A DNA stretch of 64,000 nucleotides, from the NCBI GenBank assembly GCA_964583985.1, contig CAZOYD010000002.1, positions 94,267-158,266 of the forward strand. The letters run 5' to 3'. The position numbers were made by a program, and so were the translations under genes. Position 1 is the stretch's first letter; each line of letters opens with the position of its first letter. The notes below the pieces were generated by a model, which saw only the letters and a list, made by a program, of their open reading frames with translations, did no database searches and was not told where the DNA came from. The stretch is from an uncultured archaeon. GTDB lineage: Archaea > Asgardarchaeota > Lokiarchaeia > Sigyniarchaeales > SOKP01. Shown piece by piece: positions 29,750 through 44,293 of this stretch.

Positions 29750-30946
29750 ATGTCTAAAAATCATGTTGCAGTAGTAGGAATGGGACAAACTAAGTTTAGA
29801 AGTAAACGAAGAGATGTTAATATCCCAGAAATGATCTATGAAGCGGTTGATATGGCTCTTAAGGATGCAAAATTAGAACCTGGAGACATTGATGCTATCT
29901 TAATTGGCAATTTTTGATATCATATCGGTATTAAATGCTAGATGGATCATTTCGAGGGAATTAATTTTTCTGAAATGTGGACGGGTATTGATGCCGCGCC
30001 GGGTTATTTGAAACCAGTGGTAAAAATTGCAACGGGAGGCACCACAGGAAGTTCTTTAGCAATTTGTGGGTATCATAATATTGCCTCGGGAATATATGAT
30101 AAAGTTCTTGTTGTTGGATGGGAAAAATTGAATGAAGGAGGGGCAACGACGGGAATTATCACGGCGTTCGATCCTGTGTGGGAGAGACCCTCATTAGCGG
30201 GAGCTTTAGGTCCACTTGCATTAATGGCGGGAATGTATTCCGCTAAATATGGGATAACTCCAGAACAAGCGGCAAAGGTAACTGTTAAAAATAGAAGTAA
30301 TGCCGCAAATAATCCTTTTGCTCACCTTCAGATGCCAGATATTACGATTGATTATGTGATGAGTTCTCAAGTTATTTCTTATCCCCTAAGATTACACGAT
30401 TGCTGTCCTCAAAGTGAAGGTGCATGTGCTCTAATTTACGCAAATGAAAAAGAAGCCAAAAAGATCACGGATACACCTGCTTGGTTTCATGCAGTAGAAA
30501 CGGCTCATTATTATACGTTTGGGACGGATGATAAGATGTACGATCTTCCTACGGCCACCATCGCATCTAAAAAAGCATATAAAAGAGCAGGAATAAAAAA
30601 TCCTTTAAGAGATTTGGATGTAGCAGAAATATATGAACCCACTTCTTGGAGCGAACTTTCATGGACTGAAGCGTTAGGGTTTTGCAAGCCAGGAGAGGGA
30701 GGTAAATTACTAGATGAAGGGATTACCCAAATGAGTGGAGAATTACCCGTTAATCCATCAGGAGGAGTCTTAAGCACGAATCCCATCGGTGCTACCGCAT
30801 TAGTTAGAGTAGCTGAAGCTGCTATTCAGATTATGGATCGTGGTGGAAAGCGTCAAGTCCCAGATGTAGAAAAAGCGCTTGCTATGGGATTTGGTGGAAG
30901 TTTATGGACGGAAGTAATGATATTAGGAAATGAACCCTTGAGGTGA
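29750..30946 (+). CDS. Ltp3-like thiolase-family protein, two exons: 29750-29911 and 29942-30946 (388 aa after splicing)
   Basis: SD GGAGGAG then ATG 29750; spliced junction DIDAILIGN|MDHFEGI; TGGTTG, EIYEP.SW, VNPSGGVLSTNPIGAT. Confidence 0.85.
29912..29941 (+). other. putative 30-nt BHB/BHL mRNA intron (intron A)
   Basis: GGCA-AT|T-TTTGATATC-ATATC-GGTATTAAA-TGCT-AG|A: 4-bp central helix, two 3-nt bulges, 9-bp intron stem; carries in-frame TGA and TAG. Confidence 0.85.
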
Positions 30947-31446
30947 AAAAATTGAGTAAGAGAAGAAAAAGTAATGAAGAAATTTTTGAAATAAAGTGGA
31001 AAACAGATCTACCATACCGCTATTCAATTGGGAAACTTGCTGTAAAGTTTTTCGAAGAGTTAAAAGAACATAGAAAAATTATGGGAAGTAAATGCAAGAA
31101 ATGCGGAAAAGTACACTTTCCACCAAGAGCTGTTTGCGCCGATTGTTTAGTAAAAATGACTGTTGATGATATGGTAGAACTACCTCCAAAAGGAACCTTG
31201 GAAGGATTTACCGTGGTAAATTATCCTTTTACAGATCCCTCAACAGGTGGTATTCGTCCATTTCCATATGGATATGGTCTTTTCAAATTAGATGGTGCTG
31301 ATACTTATACTATGCATTTTGTAAATGAGACCGATGTTACTAAAATGAAAATTGGACAACGTGTCGAAGCTGTATTTAATGATAAACTCATAGGTGATTT
31401 TACGGCAGATATTCCATATTTTAACATAATCAAAGAGGAGAAATAA
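30943..31446 (+). CDS. DUF35 Zn-ribbon/OB-fold protein
   Basis: GSKCKKCG...FPPR..C..C, PY..G..KLDGAD, IGQRVEAVF. Confidence 0.9.
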   Translation: MKKLSKRRKSNEEIFEIKWKTDLPYRYSIGKLAVKFFEELKEHRKIMGSKCKKCGKVHFPPRAVCADCLVKMTVDDMVELPPKGTLEGFTVVNYPFTDPSTGGIRPFPYGYGLFKLDGADTYTMHFVNETDVTKMKIGQRVEAVFNDKLIGDFTADIPYFNIIKEEK

Positions 31447-31461
31447 AGGAGGAAAAGAAAT

Positions 31462-31911
31462 ATGACAGATGATATAGAGAAAAAAGTGTATCGTGGACGA
31501 ATTAAAGTACCTTACAAGCACACCGCTGGGGCTTATGTAGAAAAATTCATAACTGAAATAGGAAAAAACAACAAAATTTTTGGAGTTAAATGTCCTAAAT
31601 GTGGAGAAGTATCAGTACCTCCAAAAATGATATGTTTTAAATGCTTTGAGAAAATGGAAGAATGGGTAGAAGTAGGAAATCAAGGTACTATCACCGGTTT
31701 TACAGTTGTTTCTCATTCTACACCTGTGATGCCTCTTGAACCTCCTTTTGCTTATGCATTGATTAAACTTGATGGATCTGATACTGATTTCGTTCATATA
31801 ATTAACGAAGGAGATCCGAAAAAGCTAGAAATTGGTGCAAGAGTTGAAGCAGTATTTAAAGAAAAGCCACGAAAAAGAATTTTAGATATAGAATATTTTA
31901 AGTTGATTTAG
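31462..31911 (+). CDS. DUF35 Zn-ribbon/OB-fold protein
   Basis: GVKCPKCG...VPP...C..C, PFAYALIKLDG, IGARVEAVF. Confidence 0.9.
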   Translation: MTDDIEKKVYRGRIKVPYKHTAGAYVEKFITEIGKNNKIFGVKCPKCGEVSVPPKMICFKCFEKMEEWVEVGNQGTITGFTVVSHSTPVMPLEPPFAYALIKLDGSDTDFVHIINEGDPKKLEIGARVEAVFKEKPRKRILDIEYFKLI

Positions 31912-32000
31912 ACATTTTCACTTCAAACTCTTTTTTTTAATTTTTAATTCTTGGAAAATAAAAAATAATCCTTTTAATAATAGAAAGATAATACTTAAGC

Positions 32001-41986: not shown

Positions 41987-42105
41987 TTATATCAACTTTT
42001 CAAATTTGAGTTTTTAATATTTAATTACTCGTTTATTATTTTTATAGTTTATAATAAAATATTTAAAAAAAAGTTTAGATAGAAAATGAAAAAGATAAAA
42101 ACAAG

Positions 42106-42477
42106 TTATTTTACATGTAAAACAATGGTAATAGCTCTAGTTAATCGGATTACATCCATTACTTTTCCTTTATTGACAGTTATTTGCTCACGTGATATAG
42201 CATGAGTAAAATCTCCTTTTCCTTCACAAATTCTCACAATTGCATTAGGATCCCCAGACAATATTATATCAGCATTAGGTTTTGTTCCTTCTGATAAATA
42301 GACTTTTTTGTTTTTTATCTCCAGATAGAAACCTTTTTCGTTATCAAGATTAAATTGGAAAGACATTTCCCAATAGGCATCTTCCCCCGCAATATTTGTC
42401 ACAAAAACAGCTTGAGCTTTTGGATTATTGTTTATTTTCTCGACAATTTTCATCAATTTTTCTCTTGCTTGTCCCAT
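42106..42477 (-). CDS. SCP2 sterol/lipid-binding domain protein
   Basis: SD AGGAGG before ATG 42477; SCP2 pattern FQF.L...FYL.I.....EG....D. Confidence 0.8.
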   Translation of the reverse strand: MGQAREKLMKIVEKINNNPKAQAVFVTNIAGEDAYWEMSFQFNLDNEKGFYLEIKNKKVYLSEGTKPNADIILSGDPNAIVRICEGKGDFTHAISREQITVNKGKVMDVIRLTRAITIVLHVK

Positions 42478-42479
42478 TT

Positions 42480-42974
42480 TTACACTCCTCCTTCGTATTC
42501 TGGTTTTGAAATCCAATTTTCATACTCATCCTCGGGAACAAAGAAAAAGTCGGTCATCTTTCCTTCTCTTTGTTTATTAAATACTGCTTTAACTCTTTTG
42601 CCCTTTTTAATTTTAGAAGGTACGAGATTTTCTGAGAAAATCCCTTGAAATATAGCAGTTTCAGCACCATCGAGTTTAATGAATCCTATCCCATAGGGTA
42701 CTGCTTTGATAAAAGCTGAAGTTGTATACCACACGATCGTGCTTACTTGTATCGTTCCAGCTTGATTAAGTTCTACCCAATCTGCAGGTTCGTAACAATC
42801 AGAACAATTTATTCTTGGAGGCATCCATATCTTTCCACATTTGGTGCATTTCGTACCAAATAGCTTTTTATTTTTCATCACTTCGATAAAGAATTTGGAT
42901 TGACCACCCATCGTATAACGATATTCTATTTTTATTCGATCACGTATTTGATGATCTTGGAATTTTTCTGTCAT
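42480..42974 (-). CDS. DUF35 Zn-ribbon/OB-fold protein
   Basis: GTKCTKCG...MPPR..C..C, PY..G.IKLDGA; translationally coupled to the upstream thiolase. Confidence 0.9.
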   Translation of the reverse strand: MTEKFQDHQIRDRIKIEYRYTMGGQSKFFIEVMKNKKLFGTKCTKCGKIWMPPRINCSDCYEPADWVELNQAGTIQVSTIVWYTTSAFIKAVPYGIGFIKLDGAETAIFQGIFSENLVPSKIKKGKRVKAVFNKQREGKMTDFFFVPEDEYENWISKPEYEGGV

Positions 42975-44293
42975 TATTTTAATCCCTCCTTGTTAGCCAT
43001 TACTATTACAGCGGCATAAGCTGCTCCTGGACCTCCAATTGAGTGAGCTATAGCCCTTCCCTTCTCAATCTGAACTTGATGTTTCCCGGCTTCTCCTCTT
43101 AATTGTAAAGCAGCTTCCCCAGTACTCATTATTCCCGTGGCACCAACTGCATGACCACATCCTATCAAACCACCGGAAGGACAACATGGAAGTTCTCCAT
43201 CCAACCAAGGACCCTCTCCAGATTTCTCGAATGTTTTTTCAATCCAAGAGCCTCCTTCACCAAAAGGGACAAATCCAAGTTCTTCATAACTGATTACTTC
43301 TTGTCCACTAAATGCATCGTGTAATTCTGCTAAATCTATTTGATTTTTAATTTTATTATAATCGAGTGATGCCATTTTATAAGCTGCTTTTGCAGCATAA
43401 ATATTTGAATAAAGTCTTCCCATATCTTCTCTATTTCCTATAAAACAATCAGTATTTGCAGCTCCTACTCCAGTTATCCAAATTGGATTTTCAATTTTTA
43501 ATTCCTTTACTTTTGCTTCACTTGCTAAAATCAATGCAGCAGAAGCTTCTGAATATAGACAGCAATCAAGCATTTTAAAAGGATAACAAATTATCCGAGA
43601 ATTCATCACATCTTCCACGGTAATTTCCATCGGAGATTGCGATTTAGGATTTAACATTGCGTTTCCATGATTTTTAACGCTCACATGAGCCATTTGTTCT
43701 TCTGTTGGATTACCAAATTCCTCATAATGAGCATTAACCATTGAAACATATGATGAGGCTGCCATCAATGGGGATATTTGGGAGTTCCAAACTATATTTT
43801 CCCATCGGATATTCTTCCGCTCATATAGTAAATAAAATAACTATACAATATACGTCATATCCGCACTATAAGCAATGGCGTTAAGTACTTCGGGAGTAGT
43901 AGTCCCCGTTTGCTCATCATAACAATCATTACATTTCTCCACACCAAGACATAGGCACAGATCAGACAACCCTGATGCTACTTCCGAATAAGCCATCCTC
44001 ACAGTATATCCTCCAGTAGCCCCTCCAGATGCAATCCGCGTACCCGGTTTATTATTCATCCCGAGATACGAATTAATAAAAATATCTGGCATGAATTGTC
44101 GTTCAAATAATTCATTATATATTCCATAGACTGTTGATTCTAAATTTTTGTGGGTTATTTCTGCACCATTCTTGTTCGCATCTTTGAGAGCGAGTTTTGT
44201 AGCATCGTAAGCGAGTTCGAAATATGTTTTATCCAAATATCTTGCTCGGAAGGGGGTGATTCCTACCCCAATAATTGCTACTTTTCTTGACAA
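42974..44293 (-). CDS. SCP-x-type thiolase-family protein, three exons: 44293-43850, 43814-43799, 43767-42974 (417 aa after splicing)
   Basis: Spliced junction YSADMTY|EYPMG(M)|MAASSY; ASGGATGG, ELHDAF, SGGLIGCGHAVGATG; the two ORF-track halves are in the same frame and the two inserts total 66 nt. Confidence 0.85.
43768..43798 (-). other. putative 31-nt relaxed BHB mRNA intron (intron C; boundaries +/-1 nt)
   Basis: Minus strand TGGG-AA|A-ATAT-AGT-TTGG-AACTC-CCAA-ATAT-CCCC-AT|T; removal is needed to restore frame after the 16-nt micro-exon. Confidence 0.72.
43815..43849 (-). other. putative 35-nt BHB/BHL mRNA intron (intron B)
   Basis: Minus strand CGGATATG-ACGT-AT|A-TTGTATAGT-TATTTTATTT-ACTATATGA-GCGG-AA|G-AATATCCG: 7-bp exon-exon helix, central helix, 9-bp intron stem. 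Confidence 0.85.

What the first reader, a model, noticed from the sequence alone, without database searches (positions are those of the whole stretch)
29750..44293. Candidate system: tRNA-type (bulge-helix-bulge) spliced mini-introns in Asgard protein-coding lipid-catabolism genes
Seen in sequence: two of the four thiolase-family genes are interrupted by three unrelated inserts of 30, 35 and 31 nt. All three share one geometry: 4 exon nt pair with the insert 3' end (central helices GGCA/TGCT, ACGT/GCGG, TGGG/CCCC). Each strand then has a 3-nt bulge beginning with A (AT|T and AG|A; AT|A and AA|G; AA|A and AT|T), plus an internal hairpin. Cutting after the 2nd nt of each bulge restores the reading frame and motifs found in the uninterrupted paralogs here. 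The rest of each gene has no stops and sits in an intact operon. Established: archaeal splicing endonuclease (EndA) cuts BHB motifs at this position and RtcB ligates. Such introns are typical of tRNA/rRNA, and the crenarchaeal cbf5 intron is the classic mRNA example. Inference: this archaeon splices ordinary metabolic mRNAs, possibly as a post-transcriptional switch for lipid catabolism. To my knowledge this is not described for Asgard thiolases, but I cannot search the literature.
Basis: partly seen in the sequence, partly recalled or inferred. Interest (0 to 1): 0.96.

Follow-up and report, generated by a model that had tools for sequence, protein, structure and literature searches.

The report
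tRNA-type mini-introns in Asgard thiolase genes
Two thiolase genes of a Loki-type Asgard archaeon are broken by three 30-35-base inserts shaped like archaeal tRNA introns; about 95 related gene copies show the inserts must be cut out of the mRNA, a kind of splicing that the papers I could search confirm inside the coding part of only one archaeal gene (cbf5).

Summary
Inserts of 30, 35 and 31 nt (window 29912-29941 +; 43815-43849 and 43768-43798 -) interrupt two SCP-x-type thiolase genes, leaving a 16-nt micro-exon. All 16 same-genus orthologs of gene 1 lack its insert at exactly the predicted junction. Among 78 orthologs of gene 2, 64 are uninterrupted. The other 14 species carry 1-4 such inserts at 8 different sites (23 instances).

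Every instance fits the bulge-helix-bulge (BHB) rule: 3-4 of 4 central pairs, 3-nt bulges, cut after the second bulge base. Removing them gives 78/78 intact frames, with junction peptides equal to the intronless consensus. dN/dS between intron-bearing copies is 0.02-0.07, and stems show compensatory changes.

The genome has two EndA paralogs and RtcB. Its single-copy RNase HII and uL11 genes carry the same kind of insert. The most likely mechanism is EndA/RtcB splicing of the mRNAs (about 0.85).

No RNA data were available, so splicing itself is inferred. The "lipid-catabolism switch" idea has no support, because the introns are not pathway-specific.

This scan has reported the same phenomenon before on other DNA of this genome and in other Asgard genomes. 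In the papers I could search, only cbf5 and one Haloferax 5' UTR intron are described.

The parts
29750..29911 (+). Thiolase gene 1, exon 1 (54 codons, ends ...IGN)
   Evidence: Pfam Thiolase_N. Aligns end to end with exon-1 equivalents of 16 orthologs.
29912..29941 (+). Intron I1, 30 nt, in frame with TGA and TAG. Central helix GGCA/UGCU, 5' bulge AU|U, 3' bulge AG|A, inner hairpin of 7-9 bp.
   Evidence: Absent from 16/16 same-genus orthologs at exactly this junction. Present in an independent DNA contig (run X3).
29942..30946 (+). Thiolase gene 1, exon 2 (334 codons plus stop)
   Evidence: Pfam Thiolase_C_1. 86-98% identical to orthologs. dN/dS against the closest ortholog is 0.053.
43850..44293 (-). 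Thiolase gene 2, exon 1 (148 codons, ends ...DMTY)
   Evidence: Pfam Thiolase_N. Ortholog alignment.
43815..43849 (-). Intron I2 (site D), 35 nt. Near-canonical hBHBh': 7-bp exon-exon outer helix, central helix with 3 pairs plus an A-G mismatch, bulges AU|A and AA|G, 9-bp inner hairpin.
   Evidence: Same site in 3 other species at 28-31 nt, with 4 stem pairs changed on both sides. Outer helix kept only in intron-bearing alleles.
43799..43814 (-). 16-nt micro-exon (codes EYPMG plus one base). Its 5' part forms the outer helix of I2; its 3' part forms the central helix and bulge of I3.
   Evidence: Both motifs form together in the 122-nt fold.
43768..43798 (-). Intron I3 (site E), 31 nt. Central helix UGGG/CCCC (3 pairs plus a U-C mismatch), bulges AA|A and AU|U, inner hairpin. 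Relaxed motif.
   Evidence: Same site in 3 other species, two of which have a 4/4 central helix.
42974..43767 (-). Thiolase gene 2, exon 3 (264 codons plus stop)
   Evidence: Pfam Thiolase_C_1. 84-96% identical to 80 orthologs. dN/dS 0.024-0.026.
30943..31911 (+). Two DUF35/ChsH2-type OB-fold genes downstream of gene 1 (usual partners of SCP-x-type thiolases), intact
   Evidence: Pfam zf-ChsH2 and OB_ChsH2_C.
42106..42974 (-). DUF35/ChsH2-type OB-fold gene and SCP2 gene downstream of gene 2, both intact
   Evidence: Pfam. The SCP2 reading frame was checked and is complete.

Best explanation
The three inserts are archaeal bulge-helix-bulge (BHB) introns inside protein-coding genes. Each gene is transcribed with its inserts.

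HOW THE MOTIF FORMS. In the pre-mRNA, four exon bases just upstream of the 5' splice site pair with four bases near the 3' end of the insert. This forms the central helix. The rest of the insert folds into a hairpin. At I2, exon sequences on either side also pair to form an outer helix.

CUTTING AND JOINING. The geometry puts both splice sites in or next to 3-nt bulges. The splicing endonuclease EndA cuts after the second bulge base on each strand. Here EndA is probably a heteromeric, broad-specificity enzyme made from two paralogs. RtcB then ligates the exons; for gene 2 that means three pieces, including a 16-nt micro-exon. The joined mRNAs encode full-length thiolases of 388 and 417 residues. 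Unspliced mRNA would give truncated products, because each insert brings a stop codon or a frameshift.

WHAT IS SHOWN: the inserts, their exact boundaries, their structural fit, their evolutionary persistence in genes under selection, and the presence of the enzymes.

WHAT IS INFERRED: cleavage and ligation of the RNA.

The introns belong to a wider set of such introns in this genome and in related Promethearchaeota. They are not a device specific to lipid catabolism.
For: 1. BOUNDARIES. Orthologs fix the boundaries independently. 16/16 gene-1 orthologs lack I1 at exactly the predicted junction. 64 of 78 gene-2 orthologs are uninterrupted.

2. STRUCTURAL FIT. There are 23 insert instances at 8 sites in 14 species, each 28-35 nt. 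All have at least 3 of 4 central-helix pairs in the BHB register, and 16 have 4 of 4. Shifting the 3' boundary by 1-5 nt leaves 2-12 instances with 4 of 4 (mean 5.6).

3. FRAME RESTORATION. Removing the inserts at the BHB cut sites leaves 78/78 frames free of internal stops. Junction peptides are identical to the consensus of intronless orthologs.

4. SELECTION. dN/dS is 0.02-0.07 between orthologs that share an intron. For the window's gene against G023, both carrying I2 and I3, dN = 0.060 and dS is about 2.5. Gene 1 against its closest ortholog gives 0.053.

5. CONSERVED STRUCTURE. Unconstrained RNAalifold recovers BHB-like consensus structures. Stem pairs changed on both sides number 4 at site D, 4 at F, and 1 each at B and E.

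6. EXON-EXON HELIX. The outer helix has 7 of 8 pairs in all intron-bearing alleles at sites D and G. Only 1% and 9% of intronless orthologs reach that.

7. ENZYMES. There are two EndA paralogs. One is closest to the 186-residue chain B of the two-chain Aeropyrum pernix EndA structure, E 1e-36. RtcB is present. Asgard archaea are reported to have an (alpha-beta)2 EndA with the L1 loop that confers broad specificity (PMC5829648).

8. SAME GENOME, HOUSEKEEPING GENES. The only RNase HII gene has a 30-nt insert inside its DEAGR|GP motif, with 4/4 central and 4/4 inner pairs. The only uL11 gene has three such inserts.

9. NO BACK-UP COPY. The assembly (100% complete by marker genes) has no intronless second copy of either thiolase.

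10. REAL DNA. Independent DNA assemblies contain the inserts.

11. PRECEDENT. The cbf5 introns follow the same cut rule, between the 2nd and 3rd bulge bases (PMC2738675).
Against: No RNA evidence. No RNA run is listed for this organism. The spliced junction sequences were not found in JGI metagenome contigs.

Folding energies are unremarkable for I1 and I3 (z = -1.4 and -0.5). Their 3' cut sites are paired in the minimum-energy fold, so cleavage would need a relaxed-motif enzyme.

I2 and I3 have a mismatch in the central helix.

I1 occurs in this species only, so a very recent inactivating insertion cannot be excluded by dN/dS.

My genome-wide BHB-plus-reading-frame scan showed no excess over frame-shifted decoys. 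I therefore have no independent count of such introns in this genome.
Confidence: 0.85

Rival explanations
1. The genes are pseudogenes. The inserts are scars of insertion events and nothing removes them.
For: Each insert brings a stop or a frameshift. I1 is unique to this species, so it could be recent. No RNA data are available.
Against: I2 and I3 are shared with three other species at saturated synonymous divergence, while dN/dS stays near 0.02-0.03. After removal, 78/78 frames are intact. The flanking exon helix is conserved only where the intron is present. Single-copy RNase HII and uL11 genes of a marker-complete genome carry the same inserts. Neither thiolase has an intact second copy.
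Confidence: 0.04
2. The inserts stay in the mRNA and the ribosome hops over them. This would be programmed translational bypassing, as in phage T4 gene 60 or the byp elements of yeast mitochondria (from my own knowledge of those systems).
For: The size (28-35 nt), the internal hairpin and a stop codon near the 5' end resemble bypass elements. Lengths that are not multiples of three are tolerated by bypassing.
Against: Bypassing needs matching take-off and landing codons. Only 3 of 23 instances have them, all at one site where the match follows from the palindromic central helix; I1 does not. The pairing of exon bases with the 3' end of the insert, in the exact register that predicts the junction, and the exon-exon helix are BHB features with no role in bypassing.
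Confidence: 0.04
3. The inserts are removed, but not by EndA/RtcB: either by an unknown RNA-processing route or by excision at the DNA level.
For: For I1 and I3 the 3' cut site is not in a bulge in the minimum-energy fold. No enzyme assay exists.
Against: At 28-35 nt the inserts are far too short for group I or II ribozymes, and Rfam finds nothing in the window. DNA contigs of several runs hold the inserts and show no intronless DNA form. The inserts have no target-site duplications or terminal repeats; boundary ambiguity is 0-3 nt. The geometry is the one EndA is known to read.
Confidence: 0.05
4. Assembly or sequencing artefact.
For: The genome is a metagenome-assembled genome with 5.25% estimated contamination.
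Against: Independently assembled contigs from other runs match across the inserts with 0 differences. Homologous inserts occur at the same sites in other species' assemblies.
Confidence: 0.01

Closest known systems
BHB intron in the cbf5 (pseudouridine synthase) pre-mRNA of Crenarchaeota (Watanabe 2002; Yoshinari 2006; Yokobori 2009, PMC2738675)
   Same: A short intron inside a coding sequence. It has an often-relaxed BHB motif, is cut between the 2nd and 3rd bulge bases, and is linked to a hetero-oligomeric EndA. Its distribution among related species is patchy, implying gain and loss.
   Different: Different phylum (Asgard/Promethearchaeota) and different genes (metabolic thiolases). There are several introns per gene with a 16-nt micro-exon, 8 sites within one ortholog group, and further introns in other genes of the same genome. 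cbf5 splicing was shown by cDNA; here it was not.
Non-canonical and multiple tRNA introns of Asgard archaea (PMC11291895; bioRxiv 10.64898/2026.10.13.758758; PMC5829648)
   Same: The same presumed machinery and motif, sizes of tens of nucleotides, many independent positions, and repeated gains reported. In this genome ARAGORN finds only 22 tRNA genes, 13 of them called with introns, which fits heavily interrupted tRNA genes.
   Different: The host RNA is an mRNA, so splicing decides the reading frame. Those papers treat tRNA genes only.
BHB intron in the 5' UTR of Haloferax volcanii HVO_1309 mRNA (PMC7714728)
   Same: An mRNA processed by EndA, confirmed in vitro.
   Different: It lies in the untranslated leader and does not interrupt the coding sequence. 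It is a single case in a euryarchaeon.
Unconventional HAC1/XBP1 mRNA splicing in eukaryotes (IRE1 endonuclease, with RtcB ligation in animals; RtcB's role in XBP-1 splicing is mentioned in PMC8718801; the rest is from my own knowledge)
   Same: Spliceosome-independent removal of a short intron from a coding mRNA by a protein endonuclease acting on stem-loops, followed by ligation with a tRNA ligase.
   Different: A different endonuclease and motif. It is a regulated stress switch in a single gene. No regulation is evident here.

Membership tests
Archaeal BHB intron (EndA/RtcB substrate) | Two 3-nt bulges on opposite strands separated by a 4-bp helix (hBHBh'), or an accepted relaxed form (HBh', hBH, BHL) | tested here: met
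   I1 has 4/4 central pairs; I2 and I3 have 3/4. The 5' bulge is closed by helices on both sides in all three. I2 is near-canonical with a 7-bp outer helix. I1 and I3 lack a closed 3' bulge, so they are relaxed. Site G in relatives is fully canonical, with a 5-bp outer and a 4-bp central helix.
Archaeal BHB intron (EndA/RtcB substrate) | Cutting after the 2nd base of each bulge yields the exact mature junction | tested here: met
   The junctions equal those of intronless orthologs for all 3 inserts in the window and for all 23 instances in gene-2 orthologs.
Archaeal BHB intron (EndA/RtcB substrate) | The host encodes a splicing endonuclease able to cut relaxed motifs, and an RtcB ligase | tested here: met
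   Two EndA paralogs of 207 and 205 aa, one closest to the 186-residue chain B of the two-chain Aeropyrum pernix EndA structure. RtcB scores 557 bits. The heteromeric assembly and the L1 loop are taken from PMC5829648 and were not tested here.
Archaeal BHB intron (EndA/RtcB substrate) | The intron is absent from the mature RNA, with a circular or linear intron released | not testable with these tools
   No RNA run is listed for this organism. The junction sequences are absent from JGI metagenome contigs, which is uninformative.
Archaeal BHB intron (EndA/RtcB substrate) | Structure maintained in evolution (compensatory changes) | tested here: met
   Stem pairs changed on both sides: site D 4, F 4, B 1, E 1, from only 4 sequences per site. 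The exon-exon helix is kept only in intron-bearing alleles.
cbf5 intron (the specific orthologous intron of Crenarchaeota) | Located in cbf5 at the codon of the catalytic aspartate | tested here: not met
   The host genes are thiolases. Same class of intron, but not the same intron.
Translational bypass element (T4 gene 60 or mitochondrial byp type) | Matching take-off and landing codons flanking the gap | tested here: not met
   3 of 23 instances match, all at one site. I1 has AAT against TAG.
Self-splicing group I or II intron | Ribozyme core of hundreds of nucleotides | tested here: not met
   The inserts are 28-35 nt. No Rfam family matches in the window.

The most novel reading that the evidence does not exclude
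Promethearchaeota (Loki-type Asgard archaea) carry a dynamic population of endonuclease-spliced introns in ordinary protein-coding genes, and new introns are still being inserted. One thiolase ortholog group alone shows 8 sites, two of them at adjacent codons and two others 5 nt apart, in 14 of 78 species. These species are scattered over a poorly resolved gene tree. At sites D and G, intron-bearing alleles share identical exon flanks.

This would mean an active route of intron gain or spread in the closest prokaryotic relatives of eukaryotes. Candidate routes are reversal of the EndA/RtcB reaction followed by copying back into DNA, or recombination with co-conversion of the flanks. It would also mean these cells routinely have to keep ribosomes off unspliced mRNA.
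Probability: 0.3. Interest if true: 0.95.

Novelty: new variant of a known kind. Interest (0 to 1): 0.85.

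Why it matters
In the papers I could search, endonuclease-type splicing inside an archaeal coding sequence is confirmed only for cbf5. A 2020 paper calls that the only such BHB intron reported besides the 5' UTR intron it describes itself (PMC7714728). A 2023 review on the origin of the nucleus states there is no evidence of eukaryote-like introns in archaeal protein-coding RNAs (PMC10732040).

Here, ordinary metabolic genes of an Asgard archaeon need up to two splicing events, including a 16-nt micro-exon, to make a protein. Housekeeping genes of the same genome do too.

If splicing is confirmed, three things follow:

- Gene callers systematically truncate or split genes in these genomes. The public protein collection already holds many fragments of about 150 and 310 residues of this thiolase.
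- The closest relatives of eukaryotes live with interrupted protein genes while, as in other archaea, translation is expected to start on unfinished transcripts. That bears directly on ideas about why transcription and translation became separated.
- The many polymorphic sites offer a natural system for studying how such introns are gained and lost.

Tried and rejected
1. RNA evidence. The look-up of sequencing runs listed no RNA holder. The only read-laying run therefore used DNA contigs. It confirmed the inserts in DNA and showed no intronless DNA form.

2. Spliced junctions in public contigs. I searched JGI metagenome contigs for the I2+I3 double junction and for the I1 junction. Both gave 0 hits. 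This is uninformative.

3. An uninterrupted protein identical to this organism's exons. I searched the 5.8-billion-protein collection. The best cluster representative is 92% identical, so there is no sign of a spliced product. Clusters are at 90% identity, so this is weak.

4. Genome-wide count. I ran my own scan of the whole genome for BHB geometry combined with joining of two coding frames, and compared it with decoys whose 3' cut was moved by 1-2 nt. The scan recovers I1. It shows no excess over decoys at any stringency (for example 103 against 101-107 loci). The background from adjacent same-strand genes and open non-coding frames is too high, so I cannot give a genome-wide count.

5. Folding energy as evidence. 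z-scores are only -0.5 to -2.2, so I rejected it as a criterion.

6. Gains versus losses. The gene tree of 78 orthologs is too poorly resolved (3 of 75 inner branches well supported), and one origin per site is not excluded.

7. Copies of the intron sequences elsewhere in the genome. There are none beyond chance matches of 16 nt or less, so the inserts are not a repeated element family.

8. Alternatives considered and rejected. These were translational bypassing (codon test), ribozyme introns (size; Rfam), stop-codon recoding (I1 holds two different stops, and I2 and I3 shift the frame), and a second intact gene copy.

9. The SCP2 gene next to gene 2 was checked for hidden introns and is complete.

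Full report
WHAT IS THERE

The region 28.6-44.3 kb of the window is an acyl-CoA / beta-oxidation-like cluster (Pfam). It holds:
- three thiolase-family genes, with a fourth at 21558-22799;
- three DUF35/ChsH2-type OB-fold genes;
- an SCP2 gene;
- two enoyl-CoA hydratases;
- an acyl-CoA synthetase;
- an old-yellow-enzyme-type reductase, two other flavoproteins and an aminotransferase.

Two of the thiolase genes are interrupted. Gene 1 (29750-30946, +) holds a 30-nt in-frame insert with TGA and TAG (I1, 29912-29941). Gene 2 (42974-44293, -) holds a 35-nt insert (I2, 43815-43849) and a 31-nt insert (I3, 43768-43798). A 16-nt micro-exon separates I2 and I3.

ARE THE BOUNDARIES REAL?

Orthologs decide this without reference to any RNA motif.
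- Gene 1: all 16 orthologs in other species of the same genus (86-98% protein identity) run straight through the junction IGN|MDHFEG. The window's genome is the only one with I1.
- Gene 2, same genus: 10 of 14 orthologs fetched from relatives (13 of them same-genus) are uninterrupted. One (G023) has I2 and I3 at the same two sites with different hairpin sequences. Three (G005, G016, G020) have a fourth 30-nt insert elsewhere in the gene.
- Gene 2, wider: among 78 analysable orthologs from species representatives titled Promethearchaeota or Promethearchaeia, 64 are uninterrupted. The other 14 carry one to four inserts of 28-35 nt at 8 distinct sites, 23 instances in all.
- Sites B and C lie at adjacent codons. 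Sites G and G' are 5 nt apart. The inserts at such neighbouring sites are unrelated in sequence.

DO THEY FIT THE BHB RULE?

The rule has three parts. Four exon bases (positions -6 to -3 from the 5' cut) pair with positions -6 to -3 from the 3' cut. A 3-nt bulge follows on each strand. The cut falls after the second bulge base.
- All 23 instances have at least 3 of the 4 central pairs, and 16 have all 4. If the 3' boundary is moved by 1-5 nt, the number with 4/4 falls to 2-12 (mean 5.6), even though the best of seven registers was taken each time.
- Cutting at these positions leaves all 78 reading frames free of internal stops. The junction peptides are identical to the consensus of the 64 intronless orthologs.
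- For the window's own inserts, the central helix has 4/4 pairs for I1 and 3/4 for I2 and I3.
- In the minimum-energy folds, the 5' cut site of each insert lies in a 3-nt bulge between the central helix and a 4-9-bp inner hairpin.
- I2 also has a 7-bp exon-exon outer helix, with the 3' cut site in an internal loop, so it is near-canonical.
- For I1 and I3 the 3' cut site is paired in a competing helix, so these are relaxed motifs.
- Folding energies are unremarkable (z = -1.4, -2.2, -0.5).

The case therefore rests on the coincidence of the motif with independently fixed boundaries and on comparative data, not on thermodynamics.

ARE THE GENES ALIVE?

- dN/dS between orthologs that share an intron is 0.02-0.07, the same as between intronless orthologs (0.036). 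The window's gene against G023, both with I2 and I3, gives dN 0.060 at saturated dS.
- Gene 1 against its closest ortholog gives 0.053.
- RNAalifold without constraints recovers BHB-like consensus structures. Stem pairs changed on both sides number 4 at site D (= I2), 4 at F, and 1 each at B and E.
- At the two sites with a canonical outer helix, the exon-exon pairing is 7 of 8 in every intron-bearing allele. Only 1% (site D) and 9% (site G) of intronless orthologs reach that. So the synonymous sites of the flanking exons are fixed where the intron is present. This could reflect selection for the splicing structure or co-conversion during intron spread; I cannot tell which.
- The assembly has no second, intact copy of either gene.

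IS IT AN ARTEFACT?

No. Independently assembled contigs of other public salt-marsh runs cover I1 (run X3) and I2 plus I3 (run X1) without a single difference. No DNA contig lacks the inserts.

IS THE MACHINERY PRESENT?

- The genome has two EndA paralogs of 207 and 205 aa. One is closest to the 186-residue chain B of the two-chain Aeropyrum pernix EndA structure, with the Sulfolobus tokodaii and Pyrobaculum aerophilum enzymes next (E 1e-36 to 1e-27). The other is more divergent.
- One RtcB is present.
- ARAGORN finds only 22 tRNA genes in this marker-complete genome, 13 of them with introns. That fits the heavily interrupted tRNA genes described for Asgard archaea (PMC11291895; bioRxiv 10.64898/2026.10.13.758758).

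IS IT SPECIFIC TO LIPID CATABOLISM?

No.
- Following leads from earlier notes of this scan, I checked two single-copy genes of the same genome myself.
- The only RNase HII gene has a 30-nt insert with a stop inside its DEAGR|GP motif. The one candidate cut that restores the motif has 4/4 central and 4/4 inner pairs.
- The only uL11 gene has three inserts of 31, 35 and 28 nt. Removing them restores the N-terminal GGKA-GGPP-GP-G-N motifs. All three have 4/4 central pairs. The middle insert I placed by reading the sequence printed.
- Neither of these two single-copy housekeeping genes has an intact second copy in the assembly, so a pseudogene reading of this kind of insert is implausible and the inserts must be removed in the cell.
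- A thiolase paralog in another species (G022) has a 30-nt insert of the same kind.

RIVALS

- Pseudogenes are excluded by the points above for I2 and I3. For I1, which is species-specific, they are made unlikely by the exact 4/4 plus 4/4 fit.
- Translational bypassing fails its defining test: take-off and landing codons match in only 3 of 23 instances.
- Ribozyme introns are excluded by size and by Rfam.
- DNA-level excision has no support.

WHAT IS MISSING

There is no direct RNA evidence. No RNA run is listed for this organism, and the spliced junctions are not in JGI metagenome contigs. My own genome-wide scan could not separate real introns from the background of adjacent genes, so I give no genome-wide count. 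The gene tree is too weak to tell gains from losses.

COMPARISON WITH WHAT IS KNOWN

- The closest case is the cbf5 pre-mRNA intron of Desulfurococcales and Sulfolobales. It has the same motif, the same cut rule, the same link to a hetero-oligomeric EndA, and the same patchy distribution (PMC2738675).
- That paper notes that introns in other archaeal protein genes had been predicted but not confirmed.
- A 2020 study lists cbf5 as the only such BHB intron reported besides the Haloferax 5' UTR intron it describes itself (PMC7714728).
- Eight full-text searches found no description of BHB introns in Asgard protein-coding genes. Subscription journals are not covered.

What differs here is the lineage, the kind of genes, several introns per gene with a micro-exon, and the many polymorphic sites.

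EARLIER NOTES OF THIS SCAN

Earlier notes report the same phenomenon on other DNA of this genome: RNase HII, uL11, another thiolase, SCP2, cdhD, nadE, leuS and a GTPase. They report it in other Asgard genomes too, three of them with RNA contigs lacking the insert. I tested only the RNase HII and uL11 claims. The RNA claims are untested here.

Noticed in passing
G000 C1:127200-127829 (-), locus L119: The only RNase HII gene of the genome has a 30-nt in-frame insert with TAA inside the catalytic DEAGR|GP motif. The BHB-register cut (4/4 central and 4/4 inner pairs) restores DEAGRGP.
   Followed up: yes
G000 C27:35400-36050 (-), locus L120: The only uL11 gene has three inserts of 31, 35 and 28 nt in its N-terminal part, each with a 4/4 central helix. 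Removing them restores the conserved GGKA...GGPP...GP...G.N motifs.
   Followed up: partly
L028 (G022:C208) around nt 1476-1506: A thiolase paralog (29% identical to gene 2) in another species of the genus has a 30-nt insert with TAA after ...HDCFTIT. It has 4/4 central and 4/4 inner pairs, and removal restores ...TITELIN.... The site is near sites G and G' of gene 2 in the protein.
   Followed up: partly
Loci L067, L077, L099, L118 (orthologs of gene 2): Some species carry 2-4 introns in this one gene; L118 has four, at sites B, E, F and G. Sites B and C are at adjacent codons, and G and G' are 5 nt apart, with unrelated intron sequences. This suggests repeated insertion into the same short stretches.
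   Followed up: partly
Window 43850-43863 and 43799-43810 (-), and the same positions in L071, L089, L116: The 14 + 12 exon bases flanking I2 are identical in all four intron-bearing species, although synonymous sites elsewhere are saturated. This reflects either selection for the outer helix or co-conversion with the intron.
   Followed up: partly
Proteins P0064-P0072, P0078: The public protein collection holds many fragments of this thiolase, of about 300-325 residues (N-terminal) and 151-160 residues (C-terminal), with up to 58 members per cluster. Their sizes fit gene calls broken at intron site G in environmental assemblies. I did not open the contigs.
   Followed up: no
Whole genome G000: ARAGORN finds only 22 tRNA genes in a genome that is 100% complete by marker genes, 13 of them called with introns. 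Many tRNA genes are probably hidden by multiple or non-canonical introns.
   Followed up: no
Window 41998 (intergenic, between SCP2 and the acyl-CoA synthetase gene): DNA contigs of runs X1 and X2 carry an extra 8 bases here (TTCAAAAA or TTTAAAAA) relative to the window. This is a strain-level indel in an A/T-rich spacer.
   Followed up: no
Window 44467-45441 (-): A 324-residue ORF next to gene 2 has no Pfam match at E <= 1e-4.
   Followed up: no
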